Shown: piece after piece, positions 33,001 to 39,000 of the stretch
Layout of the letters: each line of letters begins with the position of its first letter
How positions within the stretch are numbered: the first letter of the stretch is position 1
Assembly: GCF_055900595.2 (NCBI RefSeq)
Contig: NZ_CM148325.1
Length of the DNA stretch: 64,000 nucleotides
Direction: 5' to 3' (one strand)
Position numbers: made by a program

Positions 33001-36000
33001 CTCGTGAAGTTTTGCTAGTGCGTTTTGCGCCGCATGCAATCGAGATTGCGTCATTTTAATCATCCTGGTTAAGCAAATTTGGTGAATTGTTAACGTTAAC
33101 TTTTATAAAAATAAAGCCCCTTATCTTTATAAATGTGATTAATATCACAAATGTTAACGTTAACTATGACGTTTTGTGATCGAATGTGCATGTTTTAGTA
33201 AATCCATGACGATTTTGCGAAAAAGAGGTTTATCACTATGCGTAAGTCAGATGAATTTGAGGGAAAAAAATGTCAGCCAAAGTATGGGTTTTAGGGGATG
33301 CGGTTGTCGATCTCTTGCCTGAATCAGACGGGCGCCTACTGCCTTGTCCTGGCGGCGCGCCAGCTAACGTTGCGGTGGGAATCGCCAGATTAGGCGGAAT
33401 AAGTGGGTTTATAGGCCGGGTGGGTGATGATCCTTTTGGCGCGTTAATGCAAAGAACGCTGCTAACTGAGGGAGTCGATATCACGTATCTGAAGCAGGAT
33501 GAATGGCACCGAACATCCACGGTGCTTGTCGATCTGAACGATCAGGGGGAACGTTCATTTACGTTTATGGTCCGCCCTGGTGCCGATCTTTTTTTAGAGA
33601 CGACTGACTTGCCCTTCTGGCGACATGGCGAATGGTTACATCTCTGTTCTATTGCGTTGTCTGCTGAACCTTCGCGTACCAGCGCATTTACTGCGATGAC
33701 GGCGATCCGGCATGCCGGAGGTTTTGTCAGCTTCGATCCCAATATTCGTGAAGATCTGTGGCAAGACGAGCATTTGCTCCGCTTGTGTTTGCGACAGGCG
33801 CTACAACTGGCGGATGTCGTCAAGCTCTCGGAAGAAGAATGGCGACTTATCAGCGGAAAAACACAGAACGATCGGGATATATGTGCTCTGGCAAAAGAGT
33901 ATGAGATCGCCATGCTGTTGGTGACTAAAGGTGCAGAAGGGGTGGTGGTCTGTTATCGAGGACAAGTTCACCATTTTGCTGGAATGTCTGTGAATTGTGT
34001 CGATAGCACGGGGGCGGGAGATGCGTTCGTTGCCGGGTTACTCACAGGTCTTTCCTCTACGGGATTAGAGACCGATGAGAGAGAAATGCGACGAATTATC
34101 GATCTCGCTCAACGTTGCGGAGCGCTTGCAGTAACGGCGAAAGGGGCAATGACAGCGCTGCCATGTCGACAAGATCTGGAATAGTGAGAAATAAACGGCG
34201 AGGCCGTTCTTGTCTCTGAATAGGACGTGAATATTTTAACGACAGGCAGGTAATTATGGCACTGAATATACCATTCAGAAATGTGTACTATCGTTTTGCA
34301 TCCAGTTACTCATTTCTCTTTTTTATTTCCTGGTCGCTGTGGTGGTCGTTATACGCTATTTGGCTGAAAGGACATCTAGGGTTGACTGGGACGGAATTAG
34401 GTACACTTTATTCGGTCAACCAGTTTACCAGTATTCTATTTATGATGGTCTACGGCATCGTCCAGGATAAACTCGGTCTGAAGAAACCGCTTATCTGGTG
34501 TATGAGTTTCATCCTGGTCTTGACCGGACCGTTTATGATTTACGTTTATGAACCGTTACTGCAAAGCAATTTTTCTGTAGGTCTAATTTTGGGGGCGCTC
34601 TTTTTTGGCTTGGGGTATCTGGCGGGCTGCGGTCTGCTTGATAGCTTCACCGAAAAAATGGCACGAAATTTTCATTTCGAATATGGAACAGCGCGCGCCT
34701 GGGGATCTTTTGGCTATGCGATTGGCGCGTTCTTTGCTGGCATATTTTTCAGTATCAGTCCCCATATCAACTTCTGGTTGGTTTCGCTATTTGGCGCTGT
34801 ATTTATGATGATCAACATGCGTTTTAAATATCAGGATCAGCAGTGCGTAGCGGCAGATGCGGGAGGGGTAAAAAAAGAGGATTTTATTGCAGTTTTCAAG
34901 GATCGAAACTTCTGGATTTTCGTCATATTTATTGTGGGGACGTGGTCTTTCTATAACATTTTTGATCAACAGCTCTTTCCTGTTTTTTATGCAGGTTTAT
35001 TCGAATCACACGATGTAGGAACGCGCCTGTATGGTTATCTCAACTCATTCCAGGTTGTACTCGAAGCGCTGTGCATGGCCATTATTCCTTTCTTTGTTAA
35101 TCGGGTAGGGCCAAAAAATGCATTACTTATCGGTGTTGTGATTATGGCGTTGCGTATTCTTTCCTGCGCACTGTTCGTTAATCCCTGGATTATTTCATTA
35201 GTGAAGCTGTTACATGCCATTGAGGTTCCACTGTGTGTCATTTCCGTCTTCAAATACAGCGTGGCAAACTTTGATAAGCGCCTGTCGTCGACGATCTTTC
35301 TGATTGGTTTTCAAATTGCCAGTTCGTTGGGGATTGTGTTGCTTTCAACGCCGACTGGAATACTTTTTGACCATGCAGGTTACCAGACGGTTTTCTTCGT
35401 AATTTCGGGTATTGTCTGCCTGATGTTGTTATTTGGCATTTTCTTCCTGAGTAAAAAACGTGAGCAAATGGTGATGGAAACGCCTGTACCTTCTGCAATA
35501 TAGACGTAAACTCTTTCCGGTTGTTGTCGATAGCTCTATATCCCTCAACCGGAAAATAATAATACCCAAATGCTTAGCGCGGCTAATAATCGCCTAATCC
35601 AAACGCCTCATTCATGTTCTGGAACAGTCGCTCAAATGTACTCATGATACGCGGTTCGCTGATTTCCAGGAAATTGTCGTAATTCAGCGACCTGTCCCGT
35701 GTATCACGGGCCTGCTAATCCATCAAGGAATGCATTGCGGAGTGAAGTATCGAGTCAAGCCAGATTTCGCGATCAGGATTCTGTGTGATGATTACATTGC
35801 CAGGCCCGGGGCTGTTTAGTCATCGCCGCACAGTGCTGAGATTTCAACCTGTTGCAGGGAAAATGAGTAGATTTAGGGCAAGTGTGCTGCCAAACCCAAC
35901 TTTTACGCGGGGAAGGTAGATTTCGTTGGAAGGATAAATGGTGTCCCCTGCAGACATCTACTTGAGGCGGCAGGGGATTGATTGGAATGGTGTTTTTTAG

Positions 36001-39000
36001 ATGTGAGAAATATTTTACCCGCTATTTTACCCATTGGCGCGGCTTAAGAGCTTATTTTTGAATTCACAATGGTCACGATATAACCATCTTGCTCGCCCGT
36101 GGATAACTTTGGCTTTTGGTAGGTCGCCGGACTTAATCCGGTCATAGATGAAGGTTTTACCGAAGCCAGTATCGGCCATGATGAATTTCAAATCAACCAG
36201 TGAATCAGGTTGTAGTTCGTGTTGCATGAGTGCTATCTCCGAATAGGGAATCGAACCTGCAAATCAGGCAATAAAAAACCGCATTGATGCGGCAATGGTA
36301 GGTCTGGATATCTTGAGAAATGAACGGGCCTCATCGAGTGTGAGGCTGTGGTTAGTCCTTGCGTAACTCGCTAATTCTTCTGTAAGTCTCTGGTGCTTTG
36401 TTTCCGTGTATCTTCATTTCAGACTTCAACAGAGCAACGAGAGAATCCCATTCGTTGAGGATGCCTTTGAATGCCGGAACGCGCTTTGCAACCTTGTCGA
36501 ATGAATCCCTGATTTCTGGAATCTGCTCGACAAGCGCAACGCATCGTCGGAAATCGGCTGCGTCATGTGGAGCACCGAAGCTATGACCATAGATATTCTT
36601 TTTCAGTCCACATGCGATTGAGGCAAGAGTTGCGCTACTGATGCCAACATCGCCAGTCGATTGCCATTTCAAAACCTTCATAGCCAAATCTGACATTTCT
36701 TGTCTCCAATAAAAAAACCGCCATCAGGCGGCTTGGTGTTCTTTCAGTTCTTCAATTCGAATATTGGTTATGTCTGCATGTGCTATCTGCGCCCATATTA
36801 TCCAGTGGTCATAGCAGTCGTTGATGTTCTCTGCTTCGATAACCCTGTTGAATGGCTCTCCATTCCATTCTCCTGTGACTCGGAAGTGCATTTATCATCT
36901 CCATAAAACAAAACTCGCCGTAGCGAGTTCAGATAAAAGAAATCCCCGCGAGGGCGGGGATGTTAAGTCGGTGGGGGTACAGTATGGATATCGAAAATTA
37001 TTGCGCGATTCTCATTACTCCCCTGGGAAAACATTATCTGGCAAGCATACGTTGTTGATGCTGTTTCACAACACGTAAACGTAAGCTGTCATAGGCCCAA
37101 TTGTAGAACATGGTATATGGTAGAAAGAAAAGGAAGAATCCTATCTCTAGTGTAAAAGCCTGTAACAGACTGACGCTCAGAATCCAGGACACCATAATGA
37201 CGCCGATCGCGATAAATCCACTTTCAAAGCCCAAAGCATGGAATGCACGAACTTTTGCAGTTCGTTTTACCTGATGAGCAGGCCAGTAGCGATCAAATAG
37301 CATGTTATAGATGATATTCCAGATCATTGCAGTTGAAGCCAACAAGATAGTCATCCCGCCCATTTCGAGTATAGTTCGCTGCATTAACCATGCTGTGGTG
37401 GGGGCCAGAATCGCAGTGGCAATTCCTTCAAAGCAAATAGCGTGAAAAATACGCTCAAGTAACGATCTGTGTTGAATCGCATTATGTTGCATAACTTACC
37501 TTTCTTACAGTTTCGACCGCGTTATGGAGTTGTGAGATTTTTATCGATTTATGTGATATATAAAAGATAGATACCATCGAAAAAATTGATAGATTATGCG
37601 TTACTCACTTGAAGCGTTAAGTACATTTGTTGAAGCGGTTTCCTGTGGCTCCTTTTCTGCTGCGGCACGAAGATTACGCAAAAGTCAGTCCGCAGTCAGT
37701 ACGTCAATTGCCAATCTTGAGGTCGATCTTGGTATATCATTATTCGATCGCTCTTCGCGAGAACCTGTGCTGACAGAGGAAGGAAAGAAAGTATTGAGTT
37801 ACGTTCATGCGATTTTGTCAGCCAGTGAACGTCTTGAGGAGGTGGCGGTTTCGCTTGCCGGAGAGACTGAAGCTCGTCTGACGTTTGTGCTTTCCGATAC
37901 CCTACACCCTGACTTATTAGAAGACATCATGGTGCAGTTTGATAGTCAGTTTCCACATACTGAGTTAGAGGTTTTAATTGGTGAGGATGTCGATGTCATC
38001 GATCTTTTGCAAAAAGAACGAGCGCAGATCGGCTTAATTGAGTCTCGGGAACACTACCCCACCGATATTGGCTCAACCCGTTTACCGATGCAAGCGTGGA
38101 TGGGCATTTATGTTTCGGCGTCACATCCACTGTCTGCAGAAAAAACAATCCAGCGGGAACAACTTCATTCATGGCGAGAACTTCGTCTTAATACTTATAT
38201 CGATAACCGGGAGATGATTGCCCGTGGACCGGTTTGGTCTGCACCTAACTATTTGTTGTTACTCAGTATGGCCGTACAGGGATTTGGCTGGTGCTCTCTG
38301 CCCTGTGCTCTGGTTGAGGAGTTTGCAACAGAAAAACCGCTGGTTCAGCTCGACGTACCTGGCTGGCCAAAGGCAATTTCTATCGATCTGCTTTGGAATA
38401 AAAAATCGCCACCAGGCGCGGCTGGAAATTGGCTTAAGCATCATTTACAGCATATCAATGCCCCAAATAGTCGAACTTAGATTAGTTAAAATATGGAATC
38501 CTGAAATAATCTATGTTGATATGTGGAGCCATCTTCCAGGCTCCCACCTAAATCATGTTAGCAGTTCCATTTTTTTGATGATTTCCGCATGAGCATCATC
38601 GTTATCCCCAGCGACAAATTGAATACAAAACCAGTGCTACCGCCATTGCAATTCCTACCGTTGCGAATGCTTCAGGCCAGCTCATTGATTCACCTCCTGC
38701 GGCGGTTCTGGTAGTGGTATCCAGAACAAGGCGTTCCCTAACCACGATAAAGTGCCGTCGCTCAACTCCACGTATTCCCCTTGCACCTGTCCTGCCATAT
38801 ACTCACCGTGCTTTGAATAAATTAAAATCCAATCATCTTGAGCGGGCATTCGCTCACTACAGCTTATCCAACCACCCGGAGTTACCGGAGAGTTGCCGCG
38901 TTCTTTAATGTGCAAGCGAGGCTCACCATCTTTTGGTTCAGGCCACTGGCGCTCCATGTTGATCTTCAATTTATCTTCCTGTAGTGGCACACTGAATTTG

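What the first reader, a model, noticed from the sequence alone, without database searches (positions are those of the whole stretch)
35939..36265. argW 3'-end remnant marks the island boundary next to cscB; a second tRNA T-arm-like fragment precedes the AlpA gene
Exactly 15 bp of the argW 3' terminus are present without the tRNA body, as expected for the displaced direct repeat at the far end of a tRNA-integrated island. Everything from here to the window end has island character. A 14-bp stretch identical to the argW T-arm (GCAGGTTCGATTCC, complement of about 36246-36259) lies 18 bp upstream of the AlpA start. It may be a second, more degraded att remnant from tandem island integration, or coincidental.
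Basis: partly seen in the sequence, partly recalled or inferred. Interest (0 to 1): 0.35.

Follow-up and report, generated by a model that had tools for sequence, protein, structure and literature searches.

The report
Known argW prophage scar beside torI
The 15-bp tRNA fragment next to the sucrose genes is the already-catalogued right-hand attachment scar (K-12 "pawZ") of a KplE1/HK620-type prophage, and the second tRNA-like fragment is not a second scar but a conserved phage sequence in front of the excisionase gene torI, whose function is unknown.

Summary
Both sequences are real. TGGTGTCCCCTGCAG (35939-35953) is the reverse complement of the last 15 nt of argW. With one more base it is the published 16-nt KplE1/CPS-53 core CTGCAGGGGACACCAT, which K-12 annotates as pseudogene pawZ and HK620/Sf6 annotate as "attP core". 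The "AlpA" gene is torI, the KplE1 excisionase (identical to PDB 1Z4H).

The boundary call is right. The 435-bp cscB-to-core interval is about 95% conserved in strains with three different occupants, and similarity ends at the repeat. To the right lie a 3-kb KplE1 remnant, an IS3-family junction near 38980, and the interior of a second, P4-integrase-type argW island. In the related strain CRE1540 that island reaches its integrase and intact argW about 15 kb past the point where the window ends.

The T-arm-like fragment really matches argW over 16 nt (36262-36247). It is not a scar of tandem integration and not chance. It sits at the same place in free phage genomes (HK620, Sf6, g341c, phiEt88). 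Its core GTTCGATTCCC is invariant in 33 of 38 leader contexts (one substitution in the rest), across Xis proteins as low as 39% identical. In argW it ends exactly where the crossover core begins. Its function is unresolved.

The att scar is already known. The leader motif is a modest new lead.

The parts
35504..35937 (.). Conserved csc-side flank between the cscB stop and the att repeat. It holds a degenerate DUF4942 gene fragment.
   Evidence: About 95% column identity among the window, CRE1540 and strain 1190, which carry three different argW occupants; similarity ends at the repeat. PGAP annotates a small DUF4942 CDS here in some genomes.
35938..35953 (-). attR core of the KplE1/CPS-53-type prophage. 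It equals K-12 pawZ (15 nt) plus one T. On the minus strand it reads CTGCAGGGGACACCAT, the last 15 nt of argW plus T.
   Evidence: Exact match to the argW 3' end. Matches the published 16-nt duplicated core (PMC2951348), the pawZ annotation in NC_000913.3 and the 'attP core' features of HK620 and Sf6. Unique in the window.
35954..36026 (-). P arm of attR. It includes two GGGTAAAAT repeats (about 36032-36012, overlapping the torI stop) of the IntS arm-type kind, and the left core-type half-site AGATGTC abutting the core.
   Evidence: 97.5% identical to the HK620 attP region, where the same repeats are annotated 'attP'. IntS arm-type sites are defined by a conserved TAAA (PMC2951348). The half-site symmetry GRTGTC | TGCAGGG | GACACC is read from the family sequences and is an inference.
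36027..36227 (-). torI, the 66-aa recombination directionality factor (excisionase) of KplE1 and inhibitor of TorR.
   Evidence: Full-length match to PDB 1Z4H 'Tor inhibition protein', E=6.6e-43. PGAP product name 'response regulator inhibitor TorI'. Its sequence matches the RDF genes of HK620 and Sf6 at 100% by tblastn. The literature states the K-12 TorI protein is 100% identical to those RDFs (PMC3509656). Pfam gives only a sub-threshold HTH_17 hit and no Phage_AlpA hit.
36237..36240 (-). Shine-Dalgarno GGAG of torI.
   Evidence: Conserved GGAG(A/T) in nearly all family leaders, 9-10 nt before the ATG.
36246..36262 (-). T-arm-like leader element. The 16 nt at 36262-36247 are identical to argW (TTGCAGGTTCGATTCC). 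The family-conserved block is GTTCGATTCCC at 36256-36246.
   Evidence: Identity to argW. Invariant block in a 7-sequence alignment. Exact in 33 of 38 distinct leader contexts, with one substitution in the other five. 59 of 60 scan hits are followed by a TorI-family ORF. Single copy in HK620, phiEt88 and the window.
36272..36293 (-). Intrinsic terminator (GCCGCATCAATGCGGT plus a T tract) immediately upstream of the leader element.
   Evidence: Terminator scan. The same arrangement is seen in HK620 and many family loci.
36294..38979 (.). Rest of the KplE1-type remnant: two small phage ORFs (36352-36696 and 36724-36891, both minus strand), a PACE efflux transporter (37034-37492, minus), a LysR regulator (37596-38480, plus), and a DUF551/dATPase remnant (38682-39005, minus, cut by the IS).
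   Evidence: Collinear at 99.4% with EC42405 up to 38988, where that genome continues into an intS remnant and argW. Pfam domains.
38980..41506 (.). IS3-family element (orfA 39016-39354, orfB 39381-40220) plus further IS fragments. Together they form a strain-specific junction between the KplE1 remnant and the second island.
   Evidence: IS ends mapped by BLAST. Pfam HTH_Tnp_1 and rve. No complete E. coli genome in the collection shares this junction.
41507..64000 (.). Interior of a P4-integrase-type argW genomic island: IS66, GntR regulator, autotransporter, IS30, Zn-ADH, MFS transporter. An IS10-type element is inserted at 52279-53607.
   Evidence: 99.8% collinear with CRE1540 island segments L003 7252-29129. 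In CRE1540 the island runs on to a tyrosine integrase and tRNA-Arg 15.3 kb further. GC content ranges from 36% to 62%.

Best explanation
The 15-mer is the attR core of a KplE1/CPS-53-type prophage, which belongs to the HK620/Sf6/Kapi1 recombination module.

Established for this family: an HK620-like phage integrated by IntS-catalysed recombination between its attP core (CTGCAGGGGACACCAT) and the identical 3' end of argW. The phage copy completes argW at attL. The original tRNA end is displaced to attR, 73 bp downstream of the stop codon of torI. TorI is the excisionase that, with IntS and IHF, recombines attL with attR.

Shown here: the prophage has decayed to about 3 kb (torI, two small ORFs, a PACE transporter/LysR cargo, a dATPase remnant). 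The window lacks intS and attL.

Inferred: an IS3-family element fused this remnant to the interior of a second argW island of the P4-integrase type, deleting that island's distal ~17 kb, the middle att copy and the intS remnant. The attR copy is therefore now the outer boundary of a composite island. It is probably stranded, with no cognate integrase or partner site.

The second, T-arm-like fragment is not a chromosomal scar. It belongs to the phage module itself, which reads: intrinsic terminator, GTTCGATTCCC, 4-7 nt, GGAG, 9-10 nt, ATG of xis. It is under purifying selection as a linear sequence. Most likely it is a cis-acting leader element of the RDF gene, descended from, or mimicking, the T-loop half of the argW attachment site. 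Which factor reads it is unknown.
For: Core identity with argW and with the published core. K-12 pawZ and CPS-53 annotation. HK620 and Sf6 attP core annotations with 97% DNA identity from torI through the core. TorI matches 1Z4H. Kapi1 has the same att and the same xis/int layout. The conserved flank ends at the repeat in strains with three different occupants. The 15-mer is found only in att contexts in 2.19 Mb. Synteny: window 25648-38988 equals EC42405, and window 41507-64000 equals the CRE1540 island interior. Integrase plus tRNA-Arg plus yfdC lie at the far end in CRE1540, EC42405 and RMDEC465. No second core copy in the window at <=3 mismatches.

Leader element. It occupies the same position in free phages and in prophages of Escherichia, Salmonella, Erwinia, Leclercia, Citrobacter, Phytobacter and Pantoea. 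The 11-nt block is invariant while flanking non-coding DNA averages 58% column identity. There are 38 distinct contexts, 33 with the exact block. 59 of 60 pattern hits lead into a TorI-family ORF. No consensus RNA fold. Adjacency to the core in argW has P of about 2e-6. The KplE1 literature argues that control of excision rests on RDF expression (PMC2951348).
Against: The window ends before argW, so the far end of this strain's island is inferred from a related genome. No genome in the collection shares the 38.3-39.7 kb junction. The IS-mediated deletion history is a reconstruction.

For the leader element no function is demonstrated. About half of the family loci lack it, so it is dispensable. 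GTTCGATTCC is a common T-arm variant in tRNAs generally (a biased sample), so resemblance to a T-loop alone is less specific than the 16-nt E. coli match suggests. All family members found target argW, so I could not test whether the block follows the target tRNA.
Confidence: 0.85

Rival explanations
1. One reading: the T-arm-like fragment is a second, more degraded att remnant left in this chromosome by tandem island integration at argW.
For: Two argW elements really are in tandem in this window. Natural tandem arrays at argW exist, for example IMG/VR loci L254 and L245, where xis and a core are followed by a P4-type integrase flank. The fragment has the same orientation as the core and is contiguous with it in argW.
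Against: The fragment is present at the same place in free phage genomes that have never been in this chromosome: HK620, Sf6, g341c, Emek, Midgardsormr38 and phiEt88. It lies inside one element, between a terminator and the torI SD, not at a junction. It lacks the crossover segment, because identity stops just before TGCAGG. It is conserved rather than decaying. Genuine middle att copies keep the full core.
Confidence: 0.03
2. The fragment is a chance match to the tRNA T-arm.
For: A 14-mer with up to 2 mismatches is not rare in 64 kb: 2 found against 0.38 expected. T-loop-like strings are common in genomes.
Against: The exact match to argW is 16 nt, and it lies within 300 bp of the argW-derived core. 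P is about 1.3e-4 for the conserved block and about 2e-6 with adjacency. It is conserved across genera.
Confidence: 0.02
3. The block is an ancient fossil within the phage lineage. A captured argW 3' end (T-loop plus core) once lay upstream of xis, its crossover segment was later erased, and the remainder was kept because it was co-opted as the xis leader/SD region. This concerns origin and is compatible with the best explanation.
For: There is a 5' halo of argW identity: CAG in about half of the independent upstream contexts and TTGCAG in E. coli lineages. Identity drops to about 0.03 exactly where the overlap TGCAGG would be, and GGA-A resumes at the same 6-nt offset as the argW GGACA. The block is the 5' edge of the mosaic xis-attP-int module, and upstream sequences differ immediately 5' of it.
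Against: Beyond the T-loop the alignment to argW is weak; GGAG is simply an SD. No simple recombination pathway places a T-loop copy upstream of xis. Contexts are not phylogenetically independent.
Confidence: 0.3
4. The block is a TorI (RDF) operator through which the excisionase autoregulates its own gene.
For: Validated TorI sites in attL are defined by GTTCG/GATCG/GTCCG (PMC2951348), and the block contains GTTCG. Midgardsormr38 has two tandem copies 17 bp apart, as RDF sites often are. TorI is known to repress intS.
Against: A PWM built from the five validated sites scores the E. coli block at 3.8 bits against 8.2-11.4 for real sites, and about 1% of random 8-mers score >=4. In phiEt88, L276 and L284 the P'-arm repeats are different (GATGTAAC/GCGTTAC, GTTACC, AGAACC), yet the leader block is unchanged. 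An 11-nt invariance exceeds what a degenerate 8-mer site needs.
Confidence: 0.1
5. The block is part of the cII-activated integration promoter pI, as annotated in the HK620 and Sf6 GenBank records.
For: The depositors annotate a 'promoter: phage integration' and a cII box TTGCctgatTTGC overlapping the first four bases of the 16-mer.
Against: The spacing is N5, whereas HK620's own pRE box is TTGC-N6-TTGT. The second half-site is not conserved (TCCA, TTCA, or absent in g341c-type leaders), while the block is. There is no sigma-70-like -10/-35 in the region. A promoter here would express Xis together with Int, which is the wrong logic for integration. Int has its own mapped promoter in attL (PMC2951348).
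Confidence: 0.08
6. The block mimics the bacterial (B) half of attB and is bound by the core-binding domain of IntS, or by a host factor that recognises T-loop DNA or RNA. This would couple xis expression to integrase level or host state.
For: GATTCC, just left of the overlap TGCAGGG in argW, is the presumptive B half-site, and the block reproduces it with its 5' neighbours. The block stays constant while both RDF repeats and Int arm-type repeats change. What remains constant is the argW target.
Against: The family's own C/C' half-sites read GRTGTC, so GATTCC is a weak site. Lone core-type half-sites bind Int poorly (general knowledge of lambda Int). There is no experimental support.
Confidence: 0.12

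Closest known systems
pawZ (b4643) / attR of cryptic prophage CPS-53 (KplE1) in E. coli K-12
   Same: The same 15-nt argW 3'-end copy and the same 16-nt duplicated core. The neighbour is the same torI gene in the same orientation, and the region is 94.7% identical over 414 bp.
   Different: In K-12 the outer flank is dsdC. Here it is the csc sucrose locus, and the 6 nt after the core are phage-type TTTATC. In K-12 the prophage keeps intS and attL 10 kb away. Here that end is replaced by IS elements and a second island.
attP of phages HK620, Sf6 and Kapi1 (xis-attP-int recombination module)
   Same: The core, the P arm with GGGTAAAAT repeats, a 100% identical RDF, and the terminator-leader-xis arrangement, all 97-98% identical in DNA.
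   Different: Those are complete attP sites in viable phages. The window holds only the attR half of a decayed prophage.
The variable argW-dsdCXA / csc island (Moritz and Welch 2006; Jahreis et al. 2002, as cited in PMC4366372 and PMC8787464)
   Same: csc genes replace dsdC and part of dsdX next to argW, a known recombination hotspot occupied by various prophages and islands.
   Different: This strain's combination is not found in 5,426 complete genomes: a KplE1 remnant fused through an IS3-family element to the interior of a P4-type island.
P4-integrase-type argW island of strain CRE1540
   Same: It uses the same tRNA end and the same csc-side flank. Its interior is 99.8% identical to window 41507-64000.
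   Different: Its direct repeat is 19 nt (ATTCCTGCAGGGGACACCA). It has an unrelated AlpA-like gene with no T-loop block upstream, and its distal ~17 kb is missing from the window.
Lambda-type control of xis/int expression (pI, sib, terminators) and RDF binding sites
   Same: A short cis region upstream of the RDF gene, next to a terminator, in a module where the Int/Xis ratio decides directionality.
   Different: No promoter consensus. The annotated cII box is not conserved. The block does not behave like the RDF sites of its own phage.

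Membership tests
attR core of the KplE1/CPS-53-HK620-Sf6 recombination module (K-12 pawZ) | Sequence identical to the published duplicated core CTGCAGGGGACACCAT | tested here: met
   Window 35953-35938 on the minus strand; core quoted in PMC2951348.
attR core of the KplE1/CPS-53-HK620-Sf6 recombination module (K-12 pawZ) | Identical to the 3' end of argW, without the tRNA body | tested here: met
   15/15 match to K-12 argW. ARAGORN finds 0 tRNAs in the window. No Rfam tRNA hit.
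attR core of the KplE1/CPS-53-HK620-Sf6 recombination module (K-12 pawZ) | RDF gene torI immediately upstream, followed by a P arm with arm-type repeats, then the core | tested here: met
   torI at 36027-36227 matches 1Z4H. The P arm is 97.5% identical to the HK620 attP region, with annotated repeats.
attR core of the KplE1/CPS-53-HK620-Sf6 recombination module (K-12 pawZ) | Chromosomal flank begins right after the repeat, whatever element occupies the site | tested here: met
   Three-strain alignment: about 95% identity up to the repeat and divergence beyond it.
attR core of the KplE1/CPS-53-HK620-Sf6 recombination module (K-12 pawZ) | Partner attL (intact argW plus intS) at the other end of the same element | tested here: not met
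   No tRNA and no intS in the window. Both are present in EC42405 and RMDEC465. In this strain that end is replaced by an IS junction and a second island. The sequence beyond 64000 cannot be seen.
attR core of the KplE1/CPS-53-HK620-Sf6 recombination module (K-12 pawZ) | Competence for IntS/TorI/IHF-dependent excision | not testable with these tools
   Needs an in vivo or in vitro recombination assay.
Degraded secondary att site from tandem integration (for the T-arm-like fragment) | Lies at the junction between two integrated elements | tested here: not met
   Lies inside the phage module, between a terminator and the torI SD. The position is the same in free phages.
Degraded secondary att site from tandem integration (for the T-arm-like fragment) | Retains at least part of the crossover/core segment | tested here: not met
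   Identity to argW ends at the base before TGCAGG. Matches at the next positions are about 0.03. Real middle att copies keep the full core (L254, L245).
Degraded secondary att site from tandem integration (for the T-arm-like fragment) | Evolves neutrally (decays) | tested here: not met
   The 11-nt block is invariant in the 7-sequence alignment and exact in 33 of 38 distinct contexts, across Xis proteins of 39-100% identity.
TorI (RDF) binding site | Contains the GTTCG-type recognition core | tested here: met
   GTTCG is present. The motif definition comes from PMC2951348.
TorI (RDF) binding site | Fits the 8-nt pattern of the five validated attL sites | tested here: not met
   PWM score 3.84 against 8.2-11.4 for validated sites. 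The PWM rests on only five sites.
TorI (RDF) binding site | Changes together with the RDF repeats of the same phage | tested here: not met
   phiEt88, L276 and L284 have different P'-arm repeats but the same leader block.
cII-activated pI promoter (HK620/Sf6 annotation) | TTGC-N6-TTGC activator box and a usable -10 | tested here: not met
   N5 spacing; the second half-site is not conserved; no sigma-70-like promoter in 35850-36750.
   Pfam gives only HTH_17 at 16.9 bits (cut-off 27) and no Phage_AlpA hit at E<=0.01. NCBIfam gives no hit. One depositor cites COG3311 AlpA for a homologue. The protein is TorI.
tRNA gene or pseudogene (for either fragment) | Detectable cloverleaf or covariance-model similarity | tested here: not met
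   ARAGORN finds none. Rfam at E<=10 finds none. No conserved hairpin around the block.

The most novel reading that the evidence does not exclude
The invariant GTTCGATTCCC block 18 nt upstream of the start codon of TorI-family excisionases is a retained copy, or mimic, of the T-loop half of the argW attachment site. It has been co-opted as a cis-regulatory element of RDF expression, the step that the KplE1 literature proposes decides excision. It could be read by the integrase's core-binding domain or by a host factor that recognises T-loop sequence. It would also be a fossil showing that the xis-attP-int module once captured the 3' end of its target tRNA.
Probability: 0.2. Interest if true: 0.5.

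Novelty: already known. Interest (0 to 1): 0.27.

Why it matters
The main feature does not change anything. It is the catalogued attR/pawZ scar of KplE1 at the well-known argW-dsd/csc hotspot. Its practical value is in annotation: it fixes the island boundary to the base and shows that this strain carries a composite of two argW elements joined by IS activity.

The by-product may matter to people who study prophage excision. In this family the integrase is expressed constitutively at a low level, and excision is thought to be triggered by RDF expression, whose control is poorly understood. The block is 11 nt long, single-copy, selectively maintained and T-loop-identical, and it sits at a fixed distance from the RDF start codon. 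That makes it a concrete, easily mutated candidate for this control. It may also be a clue to how tRNA-targeting recombination modules are assembled.

Tried and rejected
(1) Looked for the window's own genome to read past 64000. No complete E. coli genome shares the 38.3-39.7 kb junction, so the far end is inferred from CRE1540.

(2) First viral scan with TorI. All 80 loci were 100% identical, so they gave no divergence.

(3) Viral scan GGTTCGATTCCCN{2,8}GGAG. This was a poor pattern: 116 of 124 hits were ordinary tRNA T-arms with GGG/CCC stems, and only 4 led to xis.

(4) RNA-structure idea (T-arm-like hairpin or SD-sequestering fold). RNAalifold gave 0 pairs on 12 leaders. Manual pairing found only a 4-bp UUCC/GGAG option, too weak to claim.

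(5) Promoter ideas (sigma-70, and by eye sigma-54, sigma-32 and sigma-E-like). No consensus match was conserved across lineages (for sigma-70; the rest by inspection only).

(6) Operator-of-a-regulon idea. The block is single-copy in HK620 and phiEt88.

(7) Coding idea. In g341c the depositor's ORF starts upstream and reads through the block in frame. In E. coli an in-frame TGA and the lack of a start codon exclude translation, and the 28-nt spacing in L101/L271 puts the block out of frame (inspection).

(8) Test of whether the block follows the target tRNA. This was impossible because every family member found has an argW-type core, and no non-E. coli host argW was among the fetched loci.

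(9) The Menouni et al. 2013 paper on Rho control of torI is not held in the library.

(10) A TorI-like inverted site, TAGTTCGT, inside torI codons 4-6 scores 9.3 but is not conserved in other lineages.

Full report
OBSERVATION

TGGTGTCCCCTGCAG lies at 35939-35953. It is the exact reverse complement of the last 15 nt of argW, as read from E. coli K-12. It is unique in the window at up to 2 mismatches, and the 16-mer is unique at up to 3 mismatches. There is no tRNA gene anywhere in the 64 kb and no tRNA-model similarity near it.

The second fragment, GCAGGTTCGATTCC, is at 36260-36247 on the minus strand. That is one base away from the coordinates given. The true exact identity to argW is 16 nt, TTGCAGGTTCGATTCC, at 36262-36247, and 19 nt separate it from the start codon.

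It is not. Chance expectation is about 0.002 per Mb.

WHAT THE 15-MER IS

- It matches PDB 1Z4H, 'Tor inhibition protein', over its full length (E=6.6e-43).
- PGAP names it TorI in thousands of genomes.
- It does not reach Pfam's Phage_AlpA model.

TorI is the recombination directionality factor of the cryptic prophage KplE1, also called CPS-53. [quoted passage not shown] That is exactly window 35953-35938 read on the minus strand.

K-12's annotation lists the same 15 nt, just past torI, as pseudogene pawZ (b4643) at the end of 'cryptic prophage CPS-53'. Phages HK620 and Sf6 carry the same torI-to-core stretch at 97% identity, and the 16 nt are annotated 'attP core' there. Kapi1's experimentally examined att site is the same sequence plus one A (PMC8787464).

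So the feature is the attR core of a KplE1/HK620-type prophage, and it is already known.

The mechanism is the standard one for this module. IntS recombines the attP core with the identical 3' end of argW. The phage copy completes the tRNA at attL, and the displaced original end stays at attR. TorI, with IntS and IHF, reverses the reaction.

THE BOUNDARY

I aligned the 435 bp between the cscB stop and the repeat in three strains with three different occupants:
- this window's relative, which carries the KplE1 remnant;
- CRE1540, which carries a 52-kb P4-integrase-type island and no torI;
- strain 1190, which carries a full P22-like prophage.

Column identity is about 95% up to the repeat. Beyond it the sequences diverge according to the occupant. 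This is direct evidence that 35939-35953 is the junction.

The csc genes are known to replace dsdC and part of dsdX at this argW hotspot (PMC4366372).

WHAT LIES TO THE RIGHT

Window 25648-38988 is collinear at 99.4% with strain EC42405. In that strain the same short KplE1 remnant continues into an intS remnant and argW only 3.7 kb from torI. The remnant consists of torI, two small ORFs, a PACE transporter, a LysR regulator and a dATPase fragment. RMDEC465 has the same arrangement.

In the window the collinearity stops near 38980, at an IS3-family element. After a cluster of IS fragments, 41507-64000 follows the interior of the CRE1540 argW island at 99.8%. In CRE1540 that island runs on for 15.3 kb to a tyrosine integrase, tRNA-Arg and yfdC.

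No complete genome in the collection shares the window's junction. No second core-like copy exists in the window.

My reconstruction is an inference:
1. The P4-type island integrated into the argW that had been reconstituted at the KplE1 attL.
2. IS-associated deletion then removed the island's distal ~17 kb, the middle att copy and the intS remnant.

The attR copy therefore now bounds a composite island, and it probably has no partner site or cognate integrase left.

THE T-ARM-LIKE FRAGMENT

The evidence runs as follows.

1. It is present in K-12 and, at the same position, in free phage genomes. In HK620 it lies between an intrinsic terminator and the SD of the torI homologue. The terminator is also present in the window at 36293-36278.

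2. It is conserved far beyond its surroundings. Seven diverged leaders were aligned: window, K-12, HK620, Erwinia phage Midgardsormr38, Salmonella phages g341c and Emek, and Erwinia phage phiEt88. Their Xis proteins are as low as 39% identical. In this alignment GTTCGATTCCC is an invariant block inside DNA that averages 58% column identity. Midgardsormr38 has it twice in tandem.

3. A scan of one genome per species found it, with 0-1 mismatch, upstream of TorI-family genes in Leclercia, two Citrobacter, Phytobacter, Pantoea, Escherichia and one MAG. About half the loci lack it.

4. A specific viral scan (GTTCGATTCCCAANNNGGAG) gave 60 hits. 59 of them lead straight into a TorI-family ORF, with 28 distinct proteins.

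5. Over all loci there are 38 distinct leader contexts. The block is exact in 33 and has a single substitution in five.

6. The bases 5' of GTTCG vary (CCAA, TCAG, CCCT, CTCA, GACAG). So the argW T-stem is not what is conserved. The invariant third C is not in argW.

A scar of tandem integration should sit between elements, keep part of the crossover segment, and decay. This fragment does none of these. Genuine tandem arrays at argW (IMG/VR loci L254 and L245) have a full core at the junction.

Chance is also excluded. A random 11-mer shares 10 nt with argW with P of about 1.3e-4. The matched stretch ends at the very base before the family-conserved core TGCAGGGGACA, which brings P to about 2e-6.

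WHAT THE BLOCK MIGHT DO

I tested the obvious candidates.

(a) RNA structure. RNAalifold finds no pair on 12 leaders.

(b) Promoter. HK620's depositors annotate a cII-activated pI promoter here. Against this:
- the cII box is N5-spaced, unlike HK620's own pRE box;
- its second half-site is not conserved;
- no sigma-70-like promoter is present;
- a promoter here would make Xis along with Int;
- Int has its own mapped promoter in attL.

(c) TorI operator. TorI sites are defined by GTTCG/GATCG/GTCCG, and the block contains GTTCG. However:
- a PWM from the five validated sites, located from the paper's coordinates, scores it 3.8 bits against 8.2-11.4 for the real sites;
- in phiEt88, L276 and L284 the P'-arm repeats are different while the block is unchanged.

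(d) Regulon operator. The block is single-copy in HK620, phiEt88 and the window.

(e) The unrelated AlpA-like gene of the P4-type argW island has no such block upstream.

What stays constant wherever the block occurs is the argW target and the distance to the start codon. That distance is 29 nt from block start to ATG in most lineages.

The flanks show a halo of argW identity on the 5' side. On the 3' side identity drops abruptly, exactly where the overlap TGCAGG would begin. This fits an ancient captured argW 3' end whose crossover segment was erased, but the evidence is weak.

My best statement is this. The block is a selectively maintained, linear cis element in the leader of the RDF gene, derived from or mimicking the T-loop half of attB. 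The factor that reads it is unknown. The KplE1 literature argues that excision is controlled at the level of RDF expression, which is why this could matter.

I found no prior description in the searchable literature. That library is incomplete.

LIMITS

- The far end of this strain's island was not seen.
- The deletion history is inferred.
- The leader contexts are not phylogenetically independent.
- GTTCGATTCC is a common T-arm variant in tRNAs generally (a biased sample).
- Every family member I found targets argW, so I could not ask whether the block follows the target tRNA.

VERDICT

The second half is wrong in both of its alternatives.

Interest is low to modest (0.27). The only new lead is the conserved T-loop-identical block in front of torI-family excisionase genes.

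Noticed in passing
window 52279-53607: A 1329-bp IS4-family element (402-aa DDE_Tnp_1 transposase; ends CTGATGAATCCCC... and ...GGGGATCTCTCAG, IS10-like from memory). It is flanked by a 9-bp target duplication, TGCTCGGCA. It splits an autotransporter gene into 50238-52316 and 53607-55073. The gene is intact in CRE1540.
   Followed up: yes
window 35933-35938, compared with L092 25722-25727 and L093: The 6 nt just outside the core are TTTATC, identical to the first bases of the phage P' arm. The window's attR repeat therefore matches the attL of its nearest relative EC42405 over 21 nt. CRE1540 and strain 1190 have GATACC at that place. This may be a footprint of where strand exchange resolved, or of an earlier integration-excision cycle.
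   Followed up: partly
window 35504-35937: The conserved 435-bp spacer between cscB and the att core carries a degenerate fragment that PGAP calls a DUF4942 protein in some genomes. In the window only 20-46-aa ORFs remain. The 'chromosomal' flank may itself be debris of an older island.
   Followed up: partly
window 37034-38480: A PACE-family (chlorhexidine-type) efflux transporter and a divergently transcribed LysR regulator sit inside the KplE1 remnant, where K-12 has phage genes. EC42405 and RMDEC465 carry the same cargo.
   Followed up: partly
L006 1780-1815 (Erwinia phage Midgardsormr38): The leader block is duplicated in tandem with a 17-bp period (CAGGTTCGATTCCCGT CAGGTTCGATTCCCACC) upstream of the excisionase gene.
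   Followed up: partly
L254 and L245 (IMG/VR prophage contigs): Natural tandem arrays at argW. The prophage's xis and a full core are followed directly by sequence resembling the integrase-side flank of the CRE1540-type island, and by a P4-like integrase start (MPLNARQVETAKP in L254).
   Followed up: partly
window 36213-36220 (inside torI codons 4-6): An inverted TorI-type site, TAGTTCGT, scores 9.3 bits on the PWM of validated TorI sites, about 37 bp from the leader block. It is not conserved in other lineages, so it is probably fortuitous.
   Followed up: partly
window 35903-36034 (minus strand): A 43-aa ORF spans the att core. It is the counterpart of HK620 hkaB and Sf6 gene 17. Integration changes its C-terminus, which argues against it being a real gene.
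   Followed up: no
window 43000-46000: A block of 60-62% GC inside the island, against 36-37% at 50-52 kb. It corresponds to the IS66-family region of the CRE1540 island and illustrates the mosaic origin of the island.
   Followed up: no
L004 1841-1861 and family loci: Across the family the att core reads as an imperfect inverted repeat, GRTGTC | TGCAGGG | GACACC. This suggests a 7-bp overlap TGCAGGG, with the bacterial left half-site GATTCC lying in the argW T-loop/T-stem. This is an inference from sequence only.
   Followed up: partly
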